64,000 bases of DNA, taken from positions 1,312,001 through 1,376,000 of the forward strand of contig OY762897.2 of assembly GCA_963666515.2 (NCBI GenBank), in the 5' to 3' direction. This stretch comes from Candidatus Binatia bacterium. GTDB taxonomy: Bacteria; Desulfobacterota; Binatia; UBA9968; JAJDTQ01. The notes beneath the pieces are model-generated. The model was not told the DNA's origin. It worked only from the letters and a program-made list of their open reading frames with translations, and did no database searches. Of this stretch, positions 19,985 to 59,817 are shown in pieces (within the stretch, counting starts at the first letter, position 1; every line of letters starts with the position of its first letter). The position numbers and the translations under genes are program-made.

Positions 19985-21969
19985 CTGAAGTTCTGAGGCC
20001 AAGACAGCGTAAGTGGTTGAATTTAGGGGGAATAGGATTGAGACGGCAGTACGGGTTCTGACTACACGGGGAGTTTGAGGTGGAGGAGTTCCAAGGCGAG
20101 GCGTTGGAGGTCGGTGGGGAGGGTGAGTTGTTGGAAGGTCAGCTTTGAGCCTTGGAGTTGAAGGGTATTGCGGGTGAGGGTGGCCAAGTGGCGGAGCAGA
20201 CCGCGGAAGTGGTGCACGGGTTGCCCCTGTGGGGTTCGGCGGGTGGCGGCTTTGCGCTCGGAGCTGTGGGAGGGCACGCTGGGGCTGACGGGGGAGGGGC
20301 GGCGGCGAGCGGCGTCCTGGGGGTCGTCTTCGGCGAACAAGAGTGGAGCCCAGGCTCGCCGCATGTGCCACTCGACGTAGTAGGCGAGCATGCACAGGAA
20401 GACGTGGGCGCGCACGCGCTGGGACAGGCGGTGGTGGATCGGGCGCACGTGGAGGTCCACGGTCTTGAGGCATCGGAAGGCGCGCTCGACTGCGGCGAGG
20501 CGTTTATAGGCGCTGACGGTGGAAGCGGCATCGAGGAGGGGCTCAGGGACGGAGGTGCGGATGACGTAGAGGCCGTCGAGGCGGGCCTCTTGAGCGATGG
20601 CGTCGGATTTGCGCTGATAGCGGAACGAGGACTCGGTGACGGTCATGTCGAAGTGCTTGGCCATCTTGAAGCGGCCCAACACCCGGCCCACCCGCAGTGC
20701 GATGGCGCTCTCACCGCGAAGCGGTCGTTTGGGGCGTTGGGTGGCCCGGACGATCTTGTCCAGTTCCTGCTCGGTGGCGTCCAGCAGGGCTTGGCGTTTG
20801 CGCCGACGCTCCTGGCGCAGCAGGGGGTTGAGGCAGGCGATGAGGCGTTCGCCGGGGAAGTCTGGATGAGCGATTTCAGCCAGGTCGGTGTGGTCGAACA
20901 GGGACGACTGCAAGGGGCCTTGGTCTTGGGCGAGCTTGGCGACGGCATCGTTGCGTAGTGCACTGATCCAGTCCAGACCCTCCACCGGGCGCAGTTCCTC
21001 GTCGATGCGCGCACTGGTCAACATTCCCCGATCGCCGACGAACACCACACGTTCGAGCCCGAAGCGCTCGCGGACCTTGTGGATCTGGTCCGCCAAAGTG
21101 CTCGGGTCAGCGGTGTTGCCCTCGTAGACCTCCACCGCCACCGGACAGCCGTCGGCGTTGCACAGTAACCCGTAGACGATCTGCAGCTTGCCTTTCTTGC
21201 CGTCCCGCGAGTAGCCGATGCGCCCCAGCGGGCAGCGCCGCCCTTCGAGATAGCTCGAAGTCACGTCGTAGAGCACCAGCGTGCCGTGGTGGAGATGGCG
21301 CTTGGCCAGACTGCGTTCGATGCGCCCCTGACGCTCCCCTAGCCAGTCCATGGCCTCATACAACTCTTCGGCCTGCACCGCCTCAAGGCCGAGTTCCTCG
21401 CCCAGGGTGGACGTCGCACTCTCGGCATCCAACGCCCGCGCCGTGGCCAGCTTCGAGTCCGGACACAGCACCCGGGACACGATCAAGGCCACACTACGGT
21501 CGCGTTGGACGCTGTGCCGAGAGTCCAGCAGCCGCTCCAGCCCCAGCGTCTTGACCGTGCCCAGCACCGCAGCCACGTGTCCATGGGGACGAGAGCGCAA
21601 CACTTGCAATGCCTCCTCGGCCGGCACCAGGGTCTTGCCGCCGAGTGCGAGGCGCACCAGTTCCACCACCGAATCGGGCAGGTGGGAGAGGTTGCCGACG
21701 GTTTCGTTTTTGACCTTGCCGTTTTCGCGGTAGGAGCGCCTGAGCAGGTGGGTGGTGTAGACTCGGTCTTTGTATCGACGCGTGGTAGTAACGACGTGTA
21801 CGGCGGCCTTGCGTCTTGGCATACATGGGATTGTAGCACAATCACCGAATCAGTCAAGCCTATTTAGTGACTACATGTTACGCCTGAAATCTGCCCTTGA
21901 ATCTCCAAATGTCTATCCAATACAATGAGTTAGAGGCTGTCAGGCCGGAATCCGGCCCCAGAACTTCAG
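19985..21969 (-). mobile_element. IS1634-family insertion sequence, complete
   Basis: Terminal IRs CTGAAGTTCTG(A/G)GGCC (15/16 match); flanking 6-bp duplication TCTAAA at 19979-19984 and 21970-21975. Confidence 0.93.
20062..21822 (-). CDS. IS1634 family DDE transposase
   Basis: LYDVTSSY.EG, GYSRD.K, V.GN..D, VGDRGM, VERAFR.LK...L..RPI.H, H+FLC.LAY. Confidence 0.95.
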   Translation of the reverse strand: MPRRKAAVHVVTTTRRYKDRVYTTHLLRRSYRENGKVKNETVGNLSHLPDSVVELVRLALGGKTLVPAEEALQVLRSRPHGHVAAVLGTVKTLGLERLLDSRHSVQRDRSVALIVSRVLCPDSKLATARALDAESATSTLGEELGLEAVQAEELYEAMDWLGERQGRIERSLAKRHLHHGTLVLYDVTSSYLEGRRCPLGRIGYSRDGKKGKLQIVYGLLCNADGCPVAVEVYEGNTADPSTLADQIHKVRERFGLERVVFVGDRGMLTSARIDEELRPVEGLDWISALRNDAVAKLAQDQGPLQSSLFDHTDLAEIAHPDFPGERLIACLNPLLRQERRRKRQALLDATEQELDKIVRATQRPKRPLRGESAIALRVGRVLGRFKMAKHFDMTVTESSFRYQRKSDAIAQEARLDGLYVIRTSVPEPLLDAASTVSAYKRLAAVERAFRCLKTVDLHVRPIHHRLSQRVRAHVFLCMLAYYVEWHMRRAWAPLLFAEDDPQDAARRRPSPVSPSVPSHSSERKAATRRTPQGQPVHHFRGLLRHLATLTRNTLQLQGSKLTFQQLTLPTDLQRLALELLHLKLPV

Positions 21970-22733: not shown

Positions 22734-24242
22734 TCAGCAGCTCTCCTTGATGAAATCCGCCACGCGCTCGCCGATCATCATGCAGGTCACGTTGGTGTTG
22801 GCGTGGGTGACCGTGGGCATGATGGAGGCGTCGGCCACCCGCAGGTTGTCGATGCCGTGAACCCGTAGCTGCTCGTCCACCACGGTCATGTTGTCGGACG
22901 CGGGACCCATGAGGCAGGTGCCGGCGGCATGGTGGTAGCTGTCCAGGGTCGAGCGCGCCCACCGGCCCCAGTCCTCACCGCGCCTGGGCTGGATCGGCGG
23001 GCCGTAGAACTCGGGCATGTCGCCGGTCTGGGTCAGCAGGTCCAGGAACTCCATGGTCGCCACCACGGCCGCGACGTCGCCGGGATGTTCCAGCATCCGC
23101 GCGTCCACCCCCGGCAGTTCGTGCGGGTCGGCGCTCTGGAGGAAGACCCGGCCGCGGTTCCGTTGCTCCAGCAGCGCCGCGGAGATGTTGAGGGTCCGGC
23201 CCACGCCCTCCAGCACCGTGGGCGGCCGCATGAAGACGTGGAAATCGCCGGTCTCCCGTGACGGGTCGCTCTTGGTGATCAGCCGGAAGGGCGGCACCAC
23301 CCAGTCCACCTCGAAGGCGCCGCGTCCCTCGAAAGCCATGTGCAGCATGGCGTGGTCCTGGTAGTTCTCGCCCACGCCGGGGCGGTCGTGCTGCACCTCG
23401 ATGCCGTGCCGCTGCAGCTCCGCGGCCGGCCCGATGCCGGAGAGCATCATGATGTGGGGGCTGTGGAACGCCCCCGCGGTCAGCACCACCTCGGCGCCGG
23501 CCGCGGTGTGCCGCTGCCCGTCCTTCTCGTAGTTCACCCCCGTCACGCGGTTGCCCGACAGGGAAAGCGAGACCACCGGCGCCTCGGCGATGACGGTGAG
23601 GTTGGGCCGGCCTCGGGCGGCCTCCAGGTACGCCACCGTGGTGGACTGCCGCATGCCGTCCTTGATGTTGTAGGGGGAGGTGCAGAGCCCCCAGGGATTG
23701 GGATCGTTGACGTCGCCTTGCGGCAGCCCGAGTTCCCGCGCCGCGTCCATGAAGACCTGCACCGCCTTGGGGACCTCCTGGCCGAAGAGGTAGTGGCGCT
23801 CGAAGTAGAGCGGCCCGCCGTGACCGTGGTCGGGGCTGTCGGGGTTATCCTGGTCGTTCTCGAGGCGTTTCAGCACCGGCAGGACGTGCTCCCACGACCA
23901 GGAAGGGTTCCCGGCCGCAGCCCACGCGTCCATGTCCGCCTTGATCGGGCGGATCACCGACATCACGTTTACCGAGGAGCCGCCGCCCATGATCTTTCCG
24001 GCCAGGGAATAGAAGGTGCTGCCGTCGACCCTGCGCTCGCTCGGGTACATGTTGATGTAGGGCGTCTCCAGGAGCAGCCGCACCCTCCCGGCCGCCTGCG
24101 CCACCAGTTCGGGGATGGGCAGCGGGTCGGGGCCGGCCTCCAGCAGCAGGACCTTTCGGTTCGGGTCCTCGGAAAGACGCGCCGCGGCCGCGCAGCCCGC
24201 GGAGCCGCCGCCCACCAGAATCACATCGTAGTCGTTTGCCAT
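22734..24242 (-). CDS. GMC family oxidoreductase (choline dehydrogenase-like)
   Basis: GGGSAG, LLEAG, GGGSSVN, VGEN.QDH, HH..GTC.MG, LRVADAS.MP...NTN. Confidence 0.95.
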   Translation of the reverse strand: MANDYDVILVGGGSAGCAAAARLSEDPNRKVLLLEAGPDPLPIPELVAQAAGRVRLLLETPYINMYPSERRVDGSTFYSLAGKIMGGGSSVNVMSVIRPIKADMDAWAAAGNPSWSWEHVLPVLKRLENDQDNPDSPDHGHGGPLYFERHYLFGQEVPKAVQVFMDAARELGLPQGDVNDPNPWGLCTSPYNIKDGMRQSTTVAYLEAARGRPNLTVIAEAPVVSLSLSGNRVTGVNYEKDGQRHTAAGAEVVLTAGAFHSPHIMMLSGIGPAAELQRHGIEVQHDRPGVGENYQDHAMLHMAFEGRGAFEVDWVVPPFRLITKSDPSRETGDFHVFMRPPTVLEGVGRTLNISAALLEQRNRGRVFLQSADPHELPGVDARMLEHPGDVAAVVATMEFLDLLTQTGDMPEFYGPPIQPRRGEDWGRWARSTLDSYHHAAGTCLMGPASDNMTVVDEQLRVHGIDNLRVADASIMPTVTHANTNVTCMMIGERVADFIKESC

Positions 24243-24326
24243 GGCATCCTCTTTTCAGGTGTGAGTACCATCTCCGTATCAACTCTGCGTTTGGCGTTCA
24301 ACAATGGTCGCCAGAGCATTTTTTTC

Positions 24327-24356
24327 TTGACAACCAACTCGCCGCGGAACTAGACT
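24327..24356 (+). promoter_or_regulatory. Putative sigma70 promoter
   Basis: T-tract, then TTGACA-18 bp-TAGACT. Confidence 0.65.
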
Positions 24357-24362
24357 CATCTC

Positions 24363-24753
24363 GGCTCGTTCGCGAACGGGCAAGAGCCCGAGACCCCACG
24401 CGCGTCGGTTCCCGGGCTCGGTCATCAAAGCCTCAGGAGGTGTCAGATGACGAAAACCAGCCCACCCGACTATAAGCGCCCGTGAAAGCGGGCGGACTGG
24501 TTCCCGGTGCTTGGCCGGACGCGGTTTCCCGGCTGACCGTCCCGACTCGGGTGTTGGATATAACACAGCGGCATAGCCGTCGGGCACGCCGCGACTCCAG
24601 GGGACAGGCAGCGGAGGAGGGCGTCAAGGGCCCATCCCGGAAGACCGCACAAGGCGGAGACCAAACGGGGAACCACGGAAACGCAGAAAACCTTACCGGC
24701 GTCGATGAACGCCAGGGGCGGGCTCTCCCACCGGAGGAGAGCCCGTTTTCTTT
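24363..24753 (+). ncRNA. Candidate ~390-nt structured RNA (unknown family), containing a 12-codon ORF
   Basis: Bounded by a promoter and a terminator; several hairpins; no credible long ORF. Confidence 0.45.
24719..24753 (+). terminator. Rho-independent terminator
   Basis: CGGGCTCTCC-7 nt-GGAGAGCCCG followed by TTTTCTTT. Confidence 0.88.
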
Positions 24754-24793
24754 ATGAGATACTGTCTTTGCAGGACCTGACGGGGGAAGAGCC

Positions 24794-25135
24794 ATGGCAA
24801 CGGAGCAAACGGAGATCACCGGCTATCACGCCCACGTCTATTACGATCCCGGCACTAGGGAGACGGCCGGACGCGTGCGGGAGGGGCTGGGCGCCCGTTT
24901 CGACGTTGTGCTGGGGCGCTGGCACGACGTGCCGGTAGGCCCGCATCCCAAGGCCATGTACCAGGTGGCCTTCACGCCCGGCGAGTTCGCCAACGTGGTT
25001 CCGTGGCTGATGGTCCATCGGGAAGGTCTGGACATCCTGGTCCACCCCAGCACCGGCGAGCACGTGGGCGACCACCGGGACCGCGCCCTGTGGCTGGGCA
25101 CGCCGCTGCCGCTGAGGCTGGGCAGGTTCGGCTGA
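24794..25135 (+). CDS. DOPA 4,5-dioxygenase family protein
   Basis: YHAHVYY, PVGPHP..MYQ.AF, WL...R.GL..LVHP.TG, H...A.WLG. Confidence 0.92.
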   Translation: MATEQTEITGYHAHVYYDPGTRETAGRVREGLGARFDVVLGRWHDVPVGPHPKAMYQVAFTPGEFANVVPWLMVHREGLDILVHPSTGEHVGDHRDRALWLGTPLPLRLGRFG

Positions 25136-25186: not shown

Positions 25187-25657
25187 TCAGATGACGTCTC
25201 CGCCGCCGTCCCGCACCCTGAGCTTCGCCTCGATGAATTCCTTGTGCGGCACGCCGATGAGGTTGGCGATCTTGCGGACCAGGTACTCCTCGTGCTCGTC
25301 CGCGTTCTCGTCCGCGTAGGCGACGGCCCACAGGTACTCCACCACCTTCCGCTTCTGTTCCTCGGAGAAGCCCGTCTTGATGAGCGATGTGAACTGGTAG
25401 TGGTCGATGGCGTCGTCGGCCTCGGCTTCGGCCAGCTCCACCAGGTCGTGGGTCTCTTCGGGGGTGAGATCGAACTTTTCCTGCAAGGCCGCCACCACCA
25501 CCGCGCGTTCGCCCTCTGTGACCTCCACGTCCGTACGCATCATCTCGATGAGCAATGCGCCGGTGGCCACCTGGAGGCGATGCCGGTCCGACAGCCGGAC
25601 GTCGCGGTGGCCCGGGTCGATGCGTCCGTCGAAAAACCGCTGGATGGCTCGGAGCAT
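25187..25657 (-). CDS. TerB family protein
   Basis: ALLIEMM..D....E.E, D.YQFT, LW.VAYAD...D.HEE..VRKIA.L.GV; ATG overlaps the NUDIX stop. Confidence 0.88.
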   Translation of the reverse strand: MLRAIQRFFDGRIDPGHRDVRLSDRHRLQVATGALLIEMMRTDVEVTEGERAVVVAALQEKFDLTPEETHDLVELAEAEADDAIDHYQFTSLIKTGFSEEQKRKVVEYLWAVAYADENADEHEEYLVRKIANLIGVPHKEFIEAKLRVRDGGGDVI

Positions 25658-26241
25658 TACGCACCCGCACCGTTGAGGAAGCGCACCTGGTAGTCCTTCC
25701 ACTTGTCCGCGGGACGGGTGATGTCTCCGGCATAGGTGCCGAAGCGGCCGCGGCGGCGGTCCCTGAAGTAGAGTTTCAGGGTCTGGTCCACCACCGGGAA
25801 GGCGATCCGGTCCCAGGGAACGTCTTCCTCGCGACACAACCGCACATCGAGGCTCTCCTCGCCGGGTCCGAACTCGCGCTCCCGCAGGGCGCCGCGGAAG
25901 ATCACGTAGACTTGGTTGATCTGCGGCAGGTTGATGAGGGTGTAGAGCTCCGATATCTCCACGTCGGCCAAGGCCTCCTCGCGGGTTTCCCTGGCGGCGC
26001 CCTCGATGGTGGTCTCGTAGTCCTCCAGGAAACCCGCGGGCAGGGTCCAGAACCCGTAGCGCGGCTCGATGGCGCGGCGGCACAACAGGATCGTGTCCTC
26101 CCACTCGGGGATGCAGCCGACCACGATCTTGGGGTTGGTGTAGTGGATGGTGTTGCAGGAGCCGCACACGTGCCGGGGCAGGTTGTCGCCCTCCGGAATA
26201 CGAAGCTCCACGGGCGCGGCGCAGGCGCTGCAGTAATTCAT
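25657..26241 (-). CDS. NUDIX hydrolase with N-terminal Zn ribbon
   Basis: C..C...C..C..IHY.NP, G.LE..ET..EGA.RE..EE Nudix box. Confidence 0.95.
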   Translation of the reverse strand: MNYCSACAAPVELRIPEGDNLPRHVCGSCNTIHYTNPKIVVGCIPEWEDTILLCRRAIEPRYGFWTLPAGFLEDYETTIEGAARETREEALADVEISELYTLINLPQINQVYVIFRGALREREFGPGEESLDVRLCREEDVPWDRIAFPVVDQTLKLYFRDRRRGRFGTYAGDITRPADKWKDYQVRFLNGAGA

Positions 26242-26422
26242 GAGGCAACCTTGGGCGCCGTTCCAGCGCCGGACGCAGCGTCACCACGTCCGCACGGCTT
26301 GCCGGCTGGCCATACCATAGGGTGGGTACTATAGGGTGATCGCCCCGGAGGGTCAATCCGAACGGGATCTCATGCTATACACGACCGAGACCCAGTGTGA
26401 CGCGCCACGCCAGGGAGGTATC

Positions 26423-27865
26423 GTGTCGAGTCTGCCCGAACGCCTTGAAACATGGTTCCGCGAAGCGGCGCCCGCGATCCGCTTCTGCTCGCTCCGCTAC
26501 GTGAGCGAACGCTCCGAGAGCCTCAGTGTGCGGCGCGGCGTGGTGGAGCCCATCGCGTCGGGAGACGATGCCGGCGTCATGATCACCGTGGCGGACGGAG
26601 ACGGACACGGCTACGCGGGCACATGCGACCTGAGCCCGGACGGGCTCCGGCGCGCGCTGGACCGCGCCCGGGACTGGGCGGCGCGGAGCGCGGAATGCAT
26701 GGCATTTCCCGCGGCGCCGTTGCAGGCGCCGTGCCGGGGCGACTACCGGACGCCGGTGGCGATTCCGTGGGATTCGGTTCCGTTGCGAGACAAGATCGAC
26801 CTGCTCCGCGCCCAGAGCGACCGCCTGCATACGGACGCGCGCATCGTGGACTGGGACGCTTCGCTCTGGCACGTGGAGACCGAAACCCTCTACCTGACCG
26901 CGGACGGCGCCCACGTGCACCAGACCTTGAATCACTTGGTGCCGGGCTTGGGCTGCACCGCCAACGACGGCCCGGAGACCGTGAGCCGCACCTTCGGCGG
27001 CCGGGGCTTCTGCCGCCAGGGCGGCCTGGAGGTGCTGGATCAGGTCGGGTTCCGCGACGCGGCGCCGGTTCTGGCGGAGGAAGCACTGGAGCTTTTGACG
27101 GCCCCCAATTGCCCGACCGGGACCATGGACCTCCTGCTCGCGCCCGACCAGCTCATCCTTCATATCCACGAGTCCATCGGCCACCCGCTGGAGTTGGACC
27201 GCATCCTGGGCGACGAGCGCAACTACGCGGGCACGAGCTTCGTGACGCCCGACATGTTCGGTAAGTACCGCTACGGGTCCGAGCTTCTGAACGTCACCTT
27301 CGATCCAGGCGACCCGGGCCAGTTCGCCAGCTACGGCTTCGACGACGAGGGCCTGCCGGTCGGCCGTGAGCACATCATCAAGGACGGCGTGCTCCTGCGG
27401 GGCCTCGGCGGACACCTGTCACAGCAGCGCACCGGCCTTCCGGGGGTGGCCAACTCCCGAGCCACGAGCTGGAACCGTCCGCCCATCGACCGCATGGCCA
27501 ACCTGAACCTGGAGCCCGGAGACTCCACGCTGGAGGAAATGGTCCGCTCCATCGAGTATGGCGTCTTCATGCAGACCAACTGCTCATGGTCCATCGACGA
27601 TTCGCGCAACAAGTTCCAGTTCGGCTGCGAGCGAGGCACGATGATCCGGGACGGCGAGCTGCGGGAGGTGGTGAAGAAGCCCAACTACCGCGGCGTGTCG
27701 GCCACCTTCTGGCGGAACCTGACCCGCGTGGGCAATCCCGATACGCGAGAGGTGCTGGGCACGCCGTTTTGCGGCAAGGGCGAGCCCAACCAGGTGATCC
27801 GCGTCGGCCACGCTGCGCCCGCGTGCGTGTTCAGCGGCGTGCAGGTCTTCGGCGGAGAGTCCTGA
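26423..27865 (+). CDS. tldD: TldD family metalloprotease
   Basis: HESIGHPLE.DR, DDEG, RMAN, CGKGEPNQ; GTG start after GGAGG. Confidence 0.92.
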   Translation: MSSLPERLETWFREAAPAIRFCSLRYVSERSESLSVRRGVVEPIASGDDAGVMITVADGDGHGYAGTCDLSPDGLRRALDRARDWAARSAECMAFPAAPLQAPCRGDYRTPVAIPWDSVPLRDKIDLLRAQSDRLHTDARIVDWDASLWHVETETLYLTADGAHVHQTLNHLVPGLGCTANDGPETVSRTFGGRGFCRQGGLEVLDQVGFRDAAPVLAEEALELLTAPNCPTGTMDLLLAPDQLILHIHESIGHPLELDRILGDERNYAGTSFVTPDMFGKYRYGSELLNVTFDPGDPGQFASYGFDDEGLPVGREHIIKDGVLLRGLGGHLSQQRTGLPGVANSRATSWNRPPIDRMANLNLEPGDSTLEEMVRSIEYGVFMQTNCSWSIDDSRNKFQFGCERGTMIRDGELREVVKKPNYRGVSATFWRNLTRVGNPDTREVLGTPFCGKGEPNQVIRVGHAAPACVFSGVQVFGGES

Positions 27866-27933: not shown

Positions 27934-29259
27934 ATGCGAGAGTACTTCCACGAACTGGCCGATTTCTCGGTGTCGCTGTTGAAGGCGCGGGAGGTGCTGC
28001 TGCTGGGCTTTTCCGGCGAGGAATCGAGCTTCGTGCGCTTCAACCGGAGCGCCGTGCGCCAGGCCGGCGCCGTGGAGCAACGGGCGCTCGCCCTGCATCT
28101 CATCGCGGACCGCCGGCGGGTCGCCGCCCATATGACCGTGTCCGGCGATGCGGCGCTCGACCGGGAACGCGTCCGGCGGGCGCTCGAAACGGCGCGCGAA
28201 CGGCTCGGCATCGTCCCCGAAGACCCGTATCTCCACTACGCCACCGACGTCCGTTCCACGGAATCCGGGCATCCCAACCGCCTGCCCGAAGACGAGGGAC
28301 AGGTGCTGGATTCCATCGTCAGGGCAGGGGAGGGACGCGACCTCGTGGGCATCTACATGGCCGGCGGCATCCACCGGGGCTTCGCCAACTCCCTGGGCCA
28401 GCGCAACTGGTTCTCCACCTACAGTCACCACTTCGACTGGAGCTTCTACCTGGACGGCGACAAGGCGGTGAAGTGCGCTTATGCCGGGTTCGTGTGGAAC
28501 CCCGCGGAGTTCGCGGAGAAGGTGGAGCGGGCGGCCGCGGAGCTGGACGCGCTGCGGCGGCCGGCGCGGACCCTGAAACCTGGACGCTACCGCGTCTACC
28601 TGGCGCCGCAGGCCCTGGAGGAGGTGGTGGGGCTGCTTCGTTGGGGCGGCTTCGGCCTGACCGCCCACCGGACGCGGCGGACGCCGCTCCTGCGCATGAT
28701 CACCGGCGACGCCGCGCTGGACCGGTCGGTGAGCATGGCGGAGGACACCGGCGCCGGTCTCACCGCCAACTTCGACGACGCCGGCTTCATCAAGCCGGAG
28801 CGGATCGCCCTCATCGACCGGGGAAGGCTCGGCGAGCCCCTGGTATCGGCCCGGGCGGCGAAGGAGTACGGCATCCCGGCCAACGGCGCCGGCCGGCGCG
28901 AATCCCCGGAGTCGCTGGCCATGGCGGGAGGCTCGATCCCGCGGAAGGACGTCCTCGCCGCCCTTGGCACGGGGATCTGCATCAACAACCTCTGGTACCT
29001 GAACTATTCCGACCGGGACGCCTGCCGCATGACCGGCATGACGCGCTTCGCCGCCTTCTGGGTGGAGGACGGCGAGATGCAGGCGCCCGTCAACGTCATG
29101 CGTTTCGACGAGACGCTGTACCGCATGCTCGGGGAAAACCTCGCGGGCCTGACCCGGGAAGTGGAGATGCTGCCTGACTCCAACTCCTACGGCGGCCGTT
29201 CCACCCGCAGCGTGCGGCTCCCGGGCGCGCTGGTGGAGGATTTCGCGCTGACCCTGTGA
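27934..29259 (+). CDS. pmbA: TldE/PmbA family protein
   Basis: Follows tldD; RFN...VRQ, PGRY.V.L.P.A, TGMTRF..F.VE.G. Confidence 0.85.
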   Translation: MREYFHELADFSVSLLKAREVLLLGFSGEESSFVRFNRSAVRQAGAVEQRALALHLIADRRRVAAHMTVSGDAALDRERVRRALETARERLGIVPEDPYLHYATDVRSTESGHPNRLPEDEGQVLDSIVRAGEGRDLVGIYMAGGIHRGFANSLGQRNWFSTYSHHFDWSFYLDGDKAVKCAYAGFVWNPAEFAEKVERAAAELDALRRPARTLKPGRYRVYLAPQALEEVVGLLRWGGFGLTAHRTRRTPLLRMITGDAALDRSVSMAEDTGAGLTANFDDAGFIKPERIALIDRGRLGEPLVSARAAKEYGIPANGAGRRESPESLAMAGGSIPRKDVLAALGTGICINNLWYLNYSDRDACRMTGMTRFAAFWVEDGEMQAPVNVMRFDETLYRMLGENLAGLTREVEMLPDSNSYGGRSTRSVRLPGALVEDFALTL

Positions 29260-59742: not shown

Positions 59743-59817
59743 TGGTGCGCCCGCCAGGAATCGAACCTGGACTTAGGGTTCCGGAGACCCTCGTGATGTC
59801 CTTTTCACTACGGGCGC
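59743..59817 (-). tRNA. tRNA-Arg(CCG)
   Basis: GCGCCCG acceptor stem, anticodon loop CT-CCG-GA, GGTTCGATTCC T-arm, encoded CCA; 75 nt. Confidence 0.96.

What the first reader, a model, noticed from the sequence alone, without database searches (positions are those of the whole stretch)
24327..24753. Self-contained ~390-nt transcription unit: candidate unknown structured RNA
Seen: a near-consensus promoter (TTGACA-18-TAGACT) and a clean intrinsic terminator enclose a region with no credible long ORF. Hairpins include GAGCCCG...CGGGCTC, CGCCCG-TGAAAG-CGGGCG inside AACCAG...CTGGTT, and CCCGAC...GTCGGG enclosing GTGTT-GGATAT-AACAC. GGTT(T)CCCGG recurs three times. The 3' third is almost T-free and rich in GGA, reminiscent of CsrA/RsmA-titrating RNAs. 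It lacks tmRNA, RNase P, SRP and common riboswitch signatures. An alternative reading is an attenuating leader for the DOPA-dioxygenase gene.
Basis: partly seen in the sequence, partly recalled or inferred. Interest (0 to 1): 0.75.

Follow-up and report, generated by a model that had tools for sequence, protein, structure and literature searches.

The report
Structured leader RNA before dioxygenase gene
A conserved, folded RNA of about 390 bases, with a 12-codon mini-gene inside it and a transcription stop at its end, lies directly in front of a dioxygenase gene in one genus of uncultured Binatia bacteria; it most likely switches that gene on and off rather than acting as a free-standing RNA.

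Summary
The unit is real. It has a sigma-70-type promoter (24327-24356), a transcript of about 390 nt and a strong intrinsic terminator (24716-24753). It is present once per genome in 26 of 28 genomes of one Binatia genus. It was not found in 95 other genomes of the order or in 150 of the phylum. It matches no Rfam family.

Paired changes support helices P2, Ppen and H1-H3/H5 of a 181-nt rod with a three-way junction (24496-24676). The core of that domain is invariant, although the neighbouring gene's third codon positions are nearly saturated.

It has an invariant AGGAGGTG-6-ATG, and its stop codon lies in a hairpin loop.

The terminator ends 17-35 nt before the Shine-Dalgarno sequence of a DodA-family (PF08883) dioxygenase gene in most genomes. 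That leaves no room for a promoter. One species has cleanly excised the RNA and fused the same promoter to the gene.

The best reading (about 0.6) is a cis-acting attenuator or riboswitch-like leader with a Pro/acidic uORF. Its signal is unknown and its antiterminator is unresolved. The CsrA-sponge idea is rejected: the genome has no csrA and no hfq. The RNA family is new but of a known kind, and it is confined to one genus.

The parts
24327..24356 (+). Sigma-70-type promoter, TTGACA (-35), 18-nt spacer, TAGACT (-10)
   Evidence: the only site in 2 kb, 10 of 12 matches. The -35 hexamer is invariant in 5 of 6 columns and the spacer in 0 of 18. It is also kept in G012, which lacks the RNA.
24363..24365 (+). 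Likely transcription start
   Evidence: It lies 7-9 nt after the -10 hexamer (inference). A metatranscriptome contig (X15) begins at 24365 with its first base. A contig of a second run (X19, kind guessed as RNA) begins at 24373. DNA contigs run on across this point. This is only a weak hint.
24365..24380 (+). P1, 5'-terminal hairpin (CUCGUU-CGCG-AACGGG)
   Evidence: 97.4% of cells paired in 26 sequences, with G.U and one-sided changes only. It is retained in G012. It is a weak hairpin on its own (-4.1 kcal/mol).
24384..24419 (+). P2 hairpin with a tip of variable length
   Evidence: 7 of 10 pairs have changes on both sides. The tip carries insertions in G002, G003, G005, G017 and G024. It folds at -19.7 kcal/mol.
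24421..24451 (+). P3: GUCAUC/GAUGAC stem that holds the uORF start codon, with the Shine-Dalgarno AGGAGGUG (24435-24442) in its loop
   Evidence: All 6 pairs are invariant in 26 of 26 sequences, so paired changes cannot test it. The Shine-Dalgarno sequence and ATG are invariant.
24447..24485 (+). uORF, 12 codons plus TGA (MTKTSPPDYKRP)
   Evidence: ATG in 26 of 26. Codons 2 (ACG/ACA/ACT), 6 (CCA/CCG) and 7 (CCC/CCG) vary only synonymously. D8 in 24 of 26, R11 in 25 of 26, P12 in 26 of 26. Length is 12 aa in 20, 13 aa in 4, and 16 and 30 aa in one each. The stop lies in the P4 loop in 24 of 26.
24477..24494 (+). P4 hairpin CGCCCG-UGAAAG-CGGGCG, covering the last two sense codons and the stop
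   Evidence: -14.0 kcal/mol, and 0 of 200 shuffles fold as well. 5 of 6 pairs are invariant.
24496..24676 (+). 3' domain. A rod (H1 24498-24505/24668-24675; H2 24506-24516/24653-24662; H3 24521-24527/24642-24648) leads to a three-way junction (H4a, H4b, H5 24616-24637). The distal arm carries H6, the invariant hairpin H7 (24551-24566) and the variable hairpin H8 (24568-24592).
   Evidence: Single-sequence fold: -89.7 kcal/mol, z -3.7, 0 of 200 shuffles as good. Model R1 and its alignment A3: 91.6% of cells paired, against 38-52% when partners are slid. 11 pairs have changes on both sides, against 6.1+-1.3 in shuffles (0 of 500). 61 of 181 columns are invariant, and 31 of 42 in the core block 24530-24571.
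24677..24695 (+). A-rich variable linker
   Evidence: 0 of 20 columns invariant.
24696..24715 (+). Ppen hairpin directly before the terminator
   Evidence: 95.6% of cells paired, and 2 of 7 pairs have changes on both sides.
24716..24753 (+). Intrinsic terminator: GC-rich stem plus UUUUCUUU
   Evidence: 98.6% of cells paired in 26 sequences; one-sided G.U changes only.
24794..25135 (+). Gene presumed to be regulated: DodA-type 'DOPA 4,5-dioxygenase family' protein, 113 aa
   Evidence: Pfam PF08883, E 5.7e-33. The closest solved structures are named only 'putative dioxygenase' (2peb, 2nyh). It lies directly downstream of the RNA in 26 of 26 loci. It is convergent with the next gene, so it is monocistronic.

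Best explanation
This is the 5' leader of the mRNA for a DodA-family dioxygenase. It is a cis-acting transcription attenuator built from a translated mini-ORF and a large folded sensor domain.

Proposed sequence of events:
- RNA polymerase starts at about 24363-24365.
- A 5' hairpin (P1) caps the transcript.
- Ribosomes load on an exposed, perfect Shine-Dalgarno sequence and translate a 12-codon uORF. Its conserved residues are Pro-Pro-Asp and Arg-Pro-stop, and its stop codon lies in the loop of a GC hairpin (P4).
- Directly behind it, a 181-nt domain folds into a rod closed by helix H1, with an invariant junction core.
- A strong intrinsic terminator then stops transcription 17-35 nt before the dioxygenase ribosome-binding site in most genomes.
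- The gene is made only when the terminator is bypassed.

Shown here: the promoter, the conserved fold, the uORF signature, the terminator, the fixed position in front of the gene, and the lack of room for a second promoter.

Inferred: read-through is set by whether the terminator's 5' arm is captured by an upstream strand. The candidates are the 3' strand of H1 and the 5' arm of P2. That choice would depend on ribosome pausing or drop-off at the Pro/acidic uORF (as in MgtL), on an unidentified ligand or protein bound to the invariant core, or on both.
For: (1) Position. The RNA lies between the promoter and the dioxygenase ORF in 26 of 26 genus loci. The same holds in 23 of 25 further loci from the public genome and metagenome collections; in the other two the gene side lies outside the fetched stretch.

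(2) No room for a promoter. Of the 21 of 26 loci that the script printed, 19 have only about 17-35 nt, with a conserved ACCGAGGCAGA Shine-Dalgarno region, between the U-tract and the start codon. The scan finds no second promoter.

(3) Natural deletion. G012 has lost everything from mid-P2 to the terminator. It keeps the promoter, P1 and the 5' part of P2, now joined to CTGACCGAGGCAGAGTC-ATG of the gene. G012 sits among RNA-bearing species in a two-gene tree (SH-aLRT 86).

(4) Selection on the RNA. The longest invariant run is 14 nt, against 5 nt in the adjacent CDS. Third codon positions of that CDS are invariant in only 14 of 103 columns.

(5) uORF. AGGAGGTG-6-ATG is invariant, and variation at Thr2, Pro6 and Pro7 is synonymous only.

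(6) Candidate antiterminator. H1's 3' strand (GGGGAGCC) complements the terminator's 5' arm (GGCUCUCC). Folded alone, the segment from the H1 3' strand to the terminator 5' arm forms this pairing in 19 of 26 species. It ranks 1-3 among about 21-26 possible sites in 17 of 26.

(7) Expression hint. A 185-nt metatranscriptome contig at depth 27.7 covers 24365-24549. The only ORF contig in that run has depth 2.9.

(8) No Hfq and no CsrA that a trans-acting RNA of the usual kinds would need.
Against: - No antiterminator could be pinned down. In the window's own sequence the H1 3' strand ranks only 8th of 22 sites. The P2 5' arm and the P4 5' arm pair with the terminator arm as well or better in many species.
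- Folding truncated transcripts with a ribosome placed at PPD or at the stop gave no consistent partner.
- The terminator is very strong and its sequence is conserved, as expected also for a stand-alone RNA gene.
- The distance from the uORF stop to the terminator (about 230 nt) is far longer than in classical leader-peptide attenuators.
- The inner core never varies, so its pairing is untested.
- The RNA occurs in one genus and one gene context only. The usual riboswitch argument of the same aptamer before different genes is therefore not available.
- The expression evidence comes from assembled contigs. These show neither strand nor ends, and the two X15 contigs differ in likeness to the window (97% and 84%), so they may come from different species.
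- Two lineages lost the RNA, so it is dispensable.
Confidence: 0.6

Rival explanations
1. A stand-alone, trans-acting small RNA gene with its own promoter and a constitutive terminator. The dioxygenase gene only receives incidental read-through.
For: There is a near-consensus promoter and a very strong, sequence-conserved terminator. The fold is rich and its core invariant, which would suit binding a protein or another RNA. The RNA contig is deeper than the ORF contig in one metatranscriptome.
Against: No other promoter for the dioxygenase gene is visible, and 17-35 nt leaves no room for one. G012 excised the RNA and kept the promoter on the gene. The linkage to one gene is perfect. No Hfq or CsrA was found. 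A strong Shine-Dalgarno sequence, ATG and uORF are not expected in a pure non-coding RNA.
Confidence: 0.2
2. An mRNA for a 12-residue peptide. The peptide is the functional product, and the 3' domain is a long structured 3' UTR that stabilises the message.
For: The Shine-Dalgarno sequence and ATG are invariant, and M-T...P-P-D...R-P is conserved with synonymous changes.
Against: 5 of the 12 positions vary freely. The length changes to 13, 16 and 30 aa in 6 species. The 3' domain is at least as conserved as the uORF. Nothing explains the fixed place in front of the gene.
Confidence: 0.08
3. A 6S-like or other housekeeping ribonucleoprotein RNA that Rfam models fail to recognise in this lineage.
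For: RF00013 (6S) finds nothing in the own genome. The 3' domain is a rod of about 180 nt. In E. coli, 6S is co-transcribed with the gene downstream of it (recalled).
Against: The region gives no 6S score even at E<=10. The rod is branched, with a three-way junction and two terminal hairpins, rather than carrying a large central bubble. It is confined to one genus and was lost twice. It carries a uORF.
Confidence: 0.04
4. A CsrA/RsmA-titrating sponge RNA.
For: GGA triplets are frequent in the T-poor 3' third.
Against: No CsrA domain was found in a 98%-complete genome, while the same search scores in E. coli, B. subtilis and Thermotoga. The GGA triplets lie mostly in helices. There is no Rfam CsrB/Rsm hit.
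Confidence: 0.01

Closest known systems
Salmonella mgtA leader with the Pro-rich uORF mgtL
   Same: Both are long structured 5' leaders in which translation of a very short ORF, combining proline with acidic residues, pauses or destabilises ribosomes and so decides whether transcription reaches the gene. (Passages of the review PMC12856214. For PMC6460261 and PMC5299641 I saw only the search listing with the start of the abstract.)
   Different: There is no sequence or Rfam similarity. Here the stop is an intrinsic terminator, not Rho. The regulated gene is a small dioxygenase, not a Mg2+ transporter. The element is confined to one Binatia genus. No link to Mg2+ has been shown.
Classical leader-peptide attenuators (trpL, hisL, pheL)
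   Same: Both have a promoter, a short translated ORF and an intrinsic terminator directly before the gene. Ribosome position is thought to choose between alternative hairpins. Engineered diproline motifs in hisL change attenuation (passages of PMC11611912).
   Different: There is no run of codons for an end-product amino acid, only 3 Pro in 12 codons. About 230 nt and a conserved 181-nt domain lie between the uORF and the terminator. The alternative pairing is unresolved.
Terminator-type riboswitches
   Same: Both have a conserved multi-helix junction closed by a helix (H1) whose 3' strand can pair with the terminator's 5' arm, followed by a terminator and one gene.
   Different: No ligand is known. 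The RNA matches none of the 4227 Rfam families. It occurs in one genus and one gene context. It carries an extra translated uORF and 5' hairpins.
Arrest peptides ending in Pro-stop (TnaC type; recalled, not checked here)
   Same: Both are short regulatory ORFs with a conserved Asp and a C-terminal Pro directly before UGA (20 of 26 species).
   Different: In 6 of 26 species one or more codons follow the Pro. There is no Trp. Termination here looks intrinsic, not Rho-dependent.
CsrB/RsmZ sponges and 6S RNA
   Same: Size, and GGA richness or a rod-like shape.
   Different: See the membership tests. Defining features were tested and not met.

Membership tests
Any Rfam 15 family | Covariance-model score at or near the gathering threshold | tested here: not met
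   Window at gathering score: only a tRNA at 59746-59817. Region 24200-24850 at E<=10: four chance-level hits, best E 3, none on the + strand. Ten homologous loci at E<=1: none.
CsrA-titrating sponge RNA (CsrB/RsmZ type) | The organism encodes CsrA/RsmA | tested here: not met
   PF02599: 0 matches in the own genome (98.35% complete). The control scores in 3 of 14 model genomes.
CsrA-titrating sponge RNA (CsrB/RsmZ type) | Many GGA motifs exposed in hairpin loops | tested here: not met
   The GGA triplets of CGGAAG and GGAGGAG lie in the H3/H4a and H5 stems of the model supported by paired changes.
6S RNA | Match to RF00013; unbranched rod with a large central bubble; broad distribution | tested here: not met
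   No 6S score at E<=10. The structure is branched. Found in 26 of 28 genomes of the genus, in 0 of 95 others of the order and in 0 of 150 of the phylum.
Hfq-dependent sRNA | The organism encodes Hfq | tested here: not met
   PF17209: 0 matches in the own genome. The control scores in 5 of 14 model genomes.
Leader-peptide transcription attenuator | Promoter, short translated ORF and intrinsic terminator directly upstream of a gene without its own promoter | tested here: met
   Translation is inferred from the Shine-Dalgarno sequence, the ATG and synonymous-only variation; it has not been observed.
Leader-peptide transcription attenuator | Mutually exclusive terminator and antiterminator pairings governed by ribosome position | tested here: inconclusive
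   The H1 3' strand pairs with the terminator 5' arm in 19 of 26 isolated-segment folds. It is not the unique best partner. Ribosome-masked folds are inconsistent.
Leader-peptide transcription attenuator | Regulatory codons matching the pathway's end product | tested here: inconclusive
   3 Pro codons in 12, conserved. No known link between proline and a DodA-family enzyme.
Riboswitch (metabolite-binding) | Conserved structured aptamer with paired changes, in the 5' UTR of the regulated gene | tested here: met
Riboswitch (metabolite-binding) | Direct, selective ligand binding | not testable with these tools
   Needs in-line probing or ITC. No ligand is even suggested by the gene, whose closest solved relatives are named only 'putative dioxygenase'.
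Riboswitch (metabolite-binding) | The same aptamer before several functionally related genes or in several lineages | tested here: not met
   One genus, one context.
mgtA/MgtL-type leader | Very short uORF combining Pro with acidic residues near the N-terminus | tested here: met
   P6-P7-D8 in 24 of 26 species and E10 in 15 of 26. The feature is as described in passages of PMC12856214.
mgtA/MgtL-type leader | Homology to the Salmonella Mg2+-sensing leader; Rho-dependent termination | tested here: not met
   No Rfam hit of any kind. The stop here is an intrinsic terminator. Rho dependence itself was not testable.

The most novel reading that the evidence does not exclude
A two-input riboregulator that arose de novo in a single genus of sponge-associated Binatia. 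An MgtL-like Pro/acidic stalling uORF would be coupled to a previously unknown aptamer class: the invariant three-way-junction core at 24530-24643. That aptamer would bind a small molecule linked to the uncharacterised bacterial DodA-family dioxygenase, such as its catechol-type substrate, its product or its metal. If so, the RNA would point to the function of a protein family that structural genomics left as 'putative dioxygenase'.
Probability: 0.22. Interest if true: 0.72.

Novelty: new variant of a known kind. Interest (0 to 1): 0.5.

Why it matters
Binatia are uncultured, and I found nothing in print about their regulatory RNAs. A search for 'Binatota' with 'riboswitch' returned 0 papers. 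A search for 'DOPA dioxygenase' with 'riboswitch' returned only engineering reviews.

This is a well-delimited RNA supported by paired changes, with a clear experimental handle: a promoter, a uORF, a sensor domain and a terminator before a single gene.

It shows how a core gene, present in 119 of 123 genomes of the order, acquired a complex 390-nt leader in one genus and shed it again twice. If the invariant core binds a metabolite, it would give the first clue to what bacterial DodA-type dioxygenases act on.

The narrow distribution and the lack of a cultured host limit its reach.

Tried and rejected
- CsrA sponge: rejected (no csrA).
- Hfq-dependent sRNA: no hfq.
- Divergent RNase P, tmRNA or SRP RNA: these are found elsewhere in the genome.
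- 6S: no similarity and the wrong shape.
- Hidden protein gene: the longest ORFs differ between species and the 3' domain has no codon periodicity. In one search my uORF row was one base out of register; one search gives it correctly as 36/44/60 minority counts for codon positions 1/2/3.
- Wider homologues. BLAST in 60 relatives found matches only in the genus. Model R1 found none in 95 other genomes of the order or 150 of the phylum; both runs used Infernal's stricter filters. With filters off, R1 gave nothing better than E 0.3 on the loci of G012, G014, G105 and G062, so no remnant is present. The exact-pattern scan of genome contigs gave 22 loci, and that of metagenome contigs gave 3. All 25 have the same synteny where the flank is in view.
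- Antiterminator: three approaches gave candidates but no unique answer.
- P1 as a DNA operator (a 12-nt palindrome) is less likely than an RNA hairpin. It has G.U pairs, and G006 has a 2-nt insertion in the loop.
- Sequencing runs. Small-share holders that I did not lay (X7-X14, X16-X18, X20-X23) are not used as evidence. The parts of the stretch that RNA contigs do not cover (24550-24889 in X15) are not evidence of absence.
- Literature: 'PPD is a strong EF-P-dependent stall motif' is my recollection. The term PPD was not found in PMC12856214 or PMC11611912.
- Supplements of papers were not consulted (closed).
- The tallies include genomes G106, G073 and G090, which the tool marks as unpublished. 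Only the counts '119 of 123' and '0 of 95' rest in part on them.
Full report
WHAT IS THERE

Promoter and terminator. The window region 24327-24753 holds the only sigma-70-type promoter match in 2 kb: TTGACA-18-TAGACT, with 1 found against 0.1 expected. About 390 nt downstream there is a GC-rich hairpin followed by TTTTCTTT. It folds at -23.7 kcal/mol, and 1 of 200 shuffles folds as well. The simple terminator scan missed it, but it is plain in the sequence and in the fold of the whole unit (z -3.3, 0 of 100 shuffles as good).

Not a known RNA. No Rfam family matches at gathering score, at E<=10 in the region (best E 3, all on the other strand), or at E<=1 in ten homologous loci. RNase P RNA, tmRNA and SRP RNA are found elsewhere in the same genome.

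WHOSE IT IS AND HOW FAR IT REACHES

Organism. An exact-pattern scan of the public genome collection found 22 contigs. Their titles are 16 'Candidatus Binatia' MAGs and 6 older deltaproteobacterial-type labels. A close relative is abundant in a run labelled sponge metagenome: X5 has a 3.6-kb contig that lies on 24200-25133 with 43 differing letters.

Distribution.
- BLAST against 60 relatives found the element in the window's genus only.
- Covariance model R1 of the 3' domain found it once per genome in 26 of 28 genomes of the genus, in 0 of 95 other genomes of the order, and in 0 of 150 genomes sampled from the phylum. Both large searches used Infernal's stricter filters.
- A metagenome scan added only 3 contigs.

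Tallies for the order include three genomes the tool marks as unpublished (G106, G073, G090).

CONSERVATION AND STRUCTURE

Alignment. In a 26-species alignment (A1), conserved blocks alternate with stretches that have no invariant column at all: the promoter spacer (0 of 18), the linker (0 of 20) and the sequence after the terminator (0 of 16).

Neutral yardstick. Third codon positions of the adjacent dioxygenase CDS in the same 26 genomes are invariant in only 14 of 103 columns, and the longest invariant run there is 5 nt. The RNA has a 14-nt invariant run, and 31 of 42 columns are invariant in its core block.

Local hairpins P1, P2, P3, P4, Ppen and the terminator. 97.5% of cells are paired, against 36-48% when partners are slid. 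9 pairs have changes on both sides, against 3.0+-1.2 in shuffles (0 of 500). Seven of those pairs lie in P2, whose tip also varies in length.

The 3' domain. Region 24496-24676 folds alone at -89.7 kcal/mol (z -3.7) into the shape I derived from comparison:
- a rod of helices H1-H3;
- a three-way junction (H4a, H4b, H5);
- a distal arm with H6, an invariant hairpin H7 (GUGUU-GGAU-AACAC) and a variable hairpin H8.

On the model-guided alignment A3, 91.6% of cells pair (38-52% when slid). 11 pairs have changes on both sides, against 6.1+-1.3 in shuffles (0 of 500). These sequences are related, so shuffles overstate significance. The paired changes lie in H1-H3 and H5. The inner core never varies and is therefore untested.

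THE uORF

But AGGAGGTG (24435-24442), six bases and ATG (24447) are invariant in 26 of 26 species and open a 12-codon frame, MTKTSPPDYKRP.

- Thr2 uses three codons, and Pro6 and Pro7 two each. All of this variation is synonymous.
- Asp8 is kept in 24 of 26 species, Arg11 in 25 of 26 and Pro12 in 26 of 26. Positions 3-5 and 9-10 vary freely.
- The stop lies in the loop of hairpin P4 in 24 of 26 species.

I take the uORF as probably translated (about 0.75). The CGCCCG of Arg-Pro is also the P4 stem, so part of this conservation may be structural.

A short ORF that mixes proline with acidic residues is what a review describes for MgtL, where it pauses or destabilises ribosomes and sets read-through into mgtA (passages of PMC12856214). 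Diproline motifs placed in hisL alter attenuation in a reporter (passages of PMC11611912). That PPD in particular is a strong EF-P-dependent stall motif is my recollection and was not verified.

CIS OR TRANS?

The gene. The dioxygenase ORF (PF08883) has as its closest solved relatives only proteins named 'putative dioxygenase'. It follows the RNA in 26 of 26 loci and in every further public locus where that flank is in view (23 of 25). It is monocistronic, because the next gene, a TerB-domain protein, is convergent.

The gap. My script printed this junction for 21 of the 26 loci. In 19 of them, only about 17-35 nt lie between the U-tract and the start codon, and most of that is a conserved Shine-Dalgarno region. 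G005 and G021 have insertions there. A promoter does not fit, and none is predicted.

The age of the leader. The gene itself is present in 119 of 123 genomes of the order, including all 27 genera. The leader is therefore a later addition in one genus. Two outgroup loci have short, unrelated upstream regions.

The losses. Two species lack the RNA. G012 has a clean excision from mid-P2 to the terminator that leaves the promoter, P1 and the 5' part of P2 joined to the gene's Shine-Dalgarno sequence and ATG. G014 has an unrelated, lower-GC upstream region of about 290 nt. In a quick two-gene protein tree both nest among RNA-bearing species. G014 sits inside clades with SH-aLRT 95 and 99; G012 has support of only 86. 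The basal pair G010/G023 has the RNA, so one gain and two losses is the simplest history.

Together these results indicate that the promoter is the gene's promoter and the RNA is its leader.

Expression. One RNA-seq metatranscriptome (X15) holds a 185-nt contig at depth 27.7. It starts with its first base at 24365, which is 9 nt after the -10 hexamer, and ends at 24549. A second run (X19, whose RNA label is a guess) holds a contig from 24373 to 24560. DNA contigs run on across both ends. The only ORF contig in X15 has depth 2.9 and is 84% identical, so it may come from another species. Contigs show neither strand nor true ends, so this is a weak hint that the leader is transcribed from the predicted start and outnumbers the ORF.

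HOW IT MAY SWITCH

The H1 3' strand (GGGGAGCC in most species) is complementary to the terminator's 5' arm (GGCUCUCC). Folded alone, the segment from H1-3' to that arm forms this pairing in 19 of 26 species. H1-3' ranks 1-3 among about 21-26 candidate sites in 17 of 26. That is the classic riboswitch layout, in which closing the sensor helix frees the terminator.

The result is not unique, however.
- In the window's own sequence H1-3' ranks 8th of 22 sites, and the P2 5' arm is best.
- The P2 5' arm and the P4 5' arm are as good in many species.
- Equilibrium folds of truncated transcripts with a ribosome footprint at PPD or at the stop gave no consistent partner.

I therefore commit to 'cis-acting attenuator whose terminator is bypassed through an alternative pairing'. 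I leave the identity of the antiterminator, the signal and the sign of regulation as inferences.

WHAT IT IS NOT

- There is no CsrA and no Hfq in a 98%-complete genome, with positive controls in model genomes.
- The GGA triplets are mostly helical.
- 6S is not detected anywhere in the genome, but this RNA has no 6S score, is branched, is confined to one genus and carries a uORF.

VERDICT

This is a real, new RNA family of a known kind: a composite leader with a uORF, a sensor domain and a terminator. It is confined to one genus of uncultured Binatia.

Confidence in the readings:
- cis leader: 0.6
- stand-alone sRNA: 0.2
- peptide mRNA: 0.08
- 6S-like or other RNP: 0.04
- CsrA sponge: 0.01

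Interest is moderate (0.5). The element is well delimited and testable in vitro, but its distribution is narrow and its signal unknown.

Noticed in passing
window 20062-21822 (-): A 586-aa ORF with a DDE transposase domain (PF01609, E 7.8e-15), about 2.5 kb upstream of the RNA. It is not linked to the RNA in relatives.
   Followed up: no
window 24365-24380; L017 (G006): P1 contains the 12-nt palindrome CGTTCGCGAACG at the very 5' end of the transcript, and G012 keeps it. It could in principle be an operator. G.U pairs and a 2-nt insertion in the loop in G006 favour an RNA hairpin.
   Followed up: partly
own genome G000 (whole): No hit for 6S RNA (RF00013), Hfq (PF17209) or CsrA (PF02599) in a 98%-complete genome. 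The 6S of this lineage, if there is one, is not recognised by the Rfam model.
   Followed up: partly
L113 (G005) and L111 (G021), between terminator and dioxygenase start: G005 carries four direct TGTCATGGG-like repeats and a weakened U-tract. G021 has about 70 extra bases. Both stretch the usual 17-35-nt gap to about 100 nt.
   Followed up: no
G010:C1:1094211-1094268: A second 57-nt match (81% identity) to the Ppen-plus-terminator part lies about 3 kb upstream of the RNA locus in G010. It may be a related terminator of another gene.
   Followed up: no
window 25187-26356 (-), 26336-27865 (+), 27934-29259 (+): A TerB-domain protein is convergent with the dioxygenase gene. A TldD/PmbA peptidase pair follows it.
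   Followed up: no
L112 (G014): G014 is a 2.7-Mb, lower-GC member of the genus. It has replaced the leader with an unrelated upstream region of about 290 nt that still has a TCGACA-17-TAGATT promoter-like site. This may be genome reduction in one lineage.
   Followed up: partly
window 24716-24753: The consensus terminator scan reported no terminator here, although the hairpin plus U-tract is unambiguous. A negative result from that scan should not be trusted on its own.
   Followed up: yes
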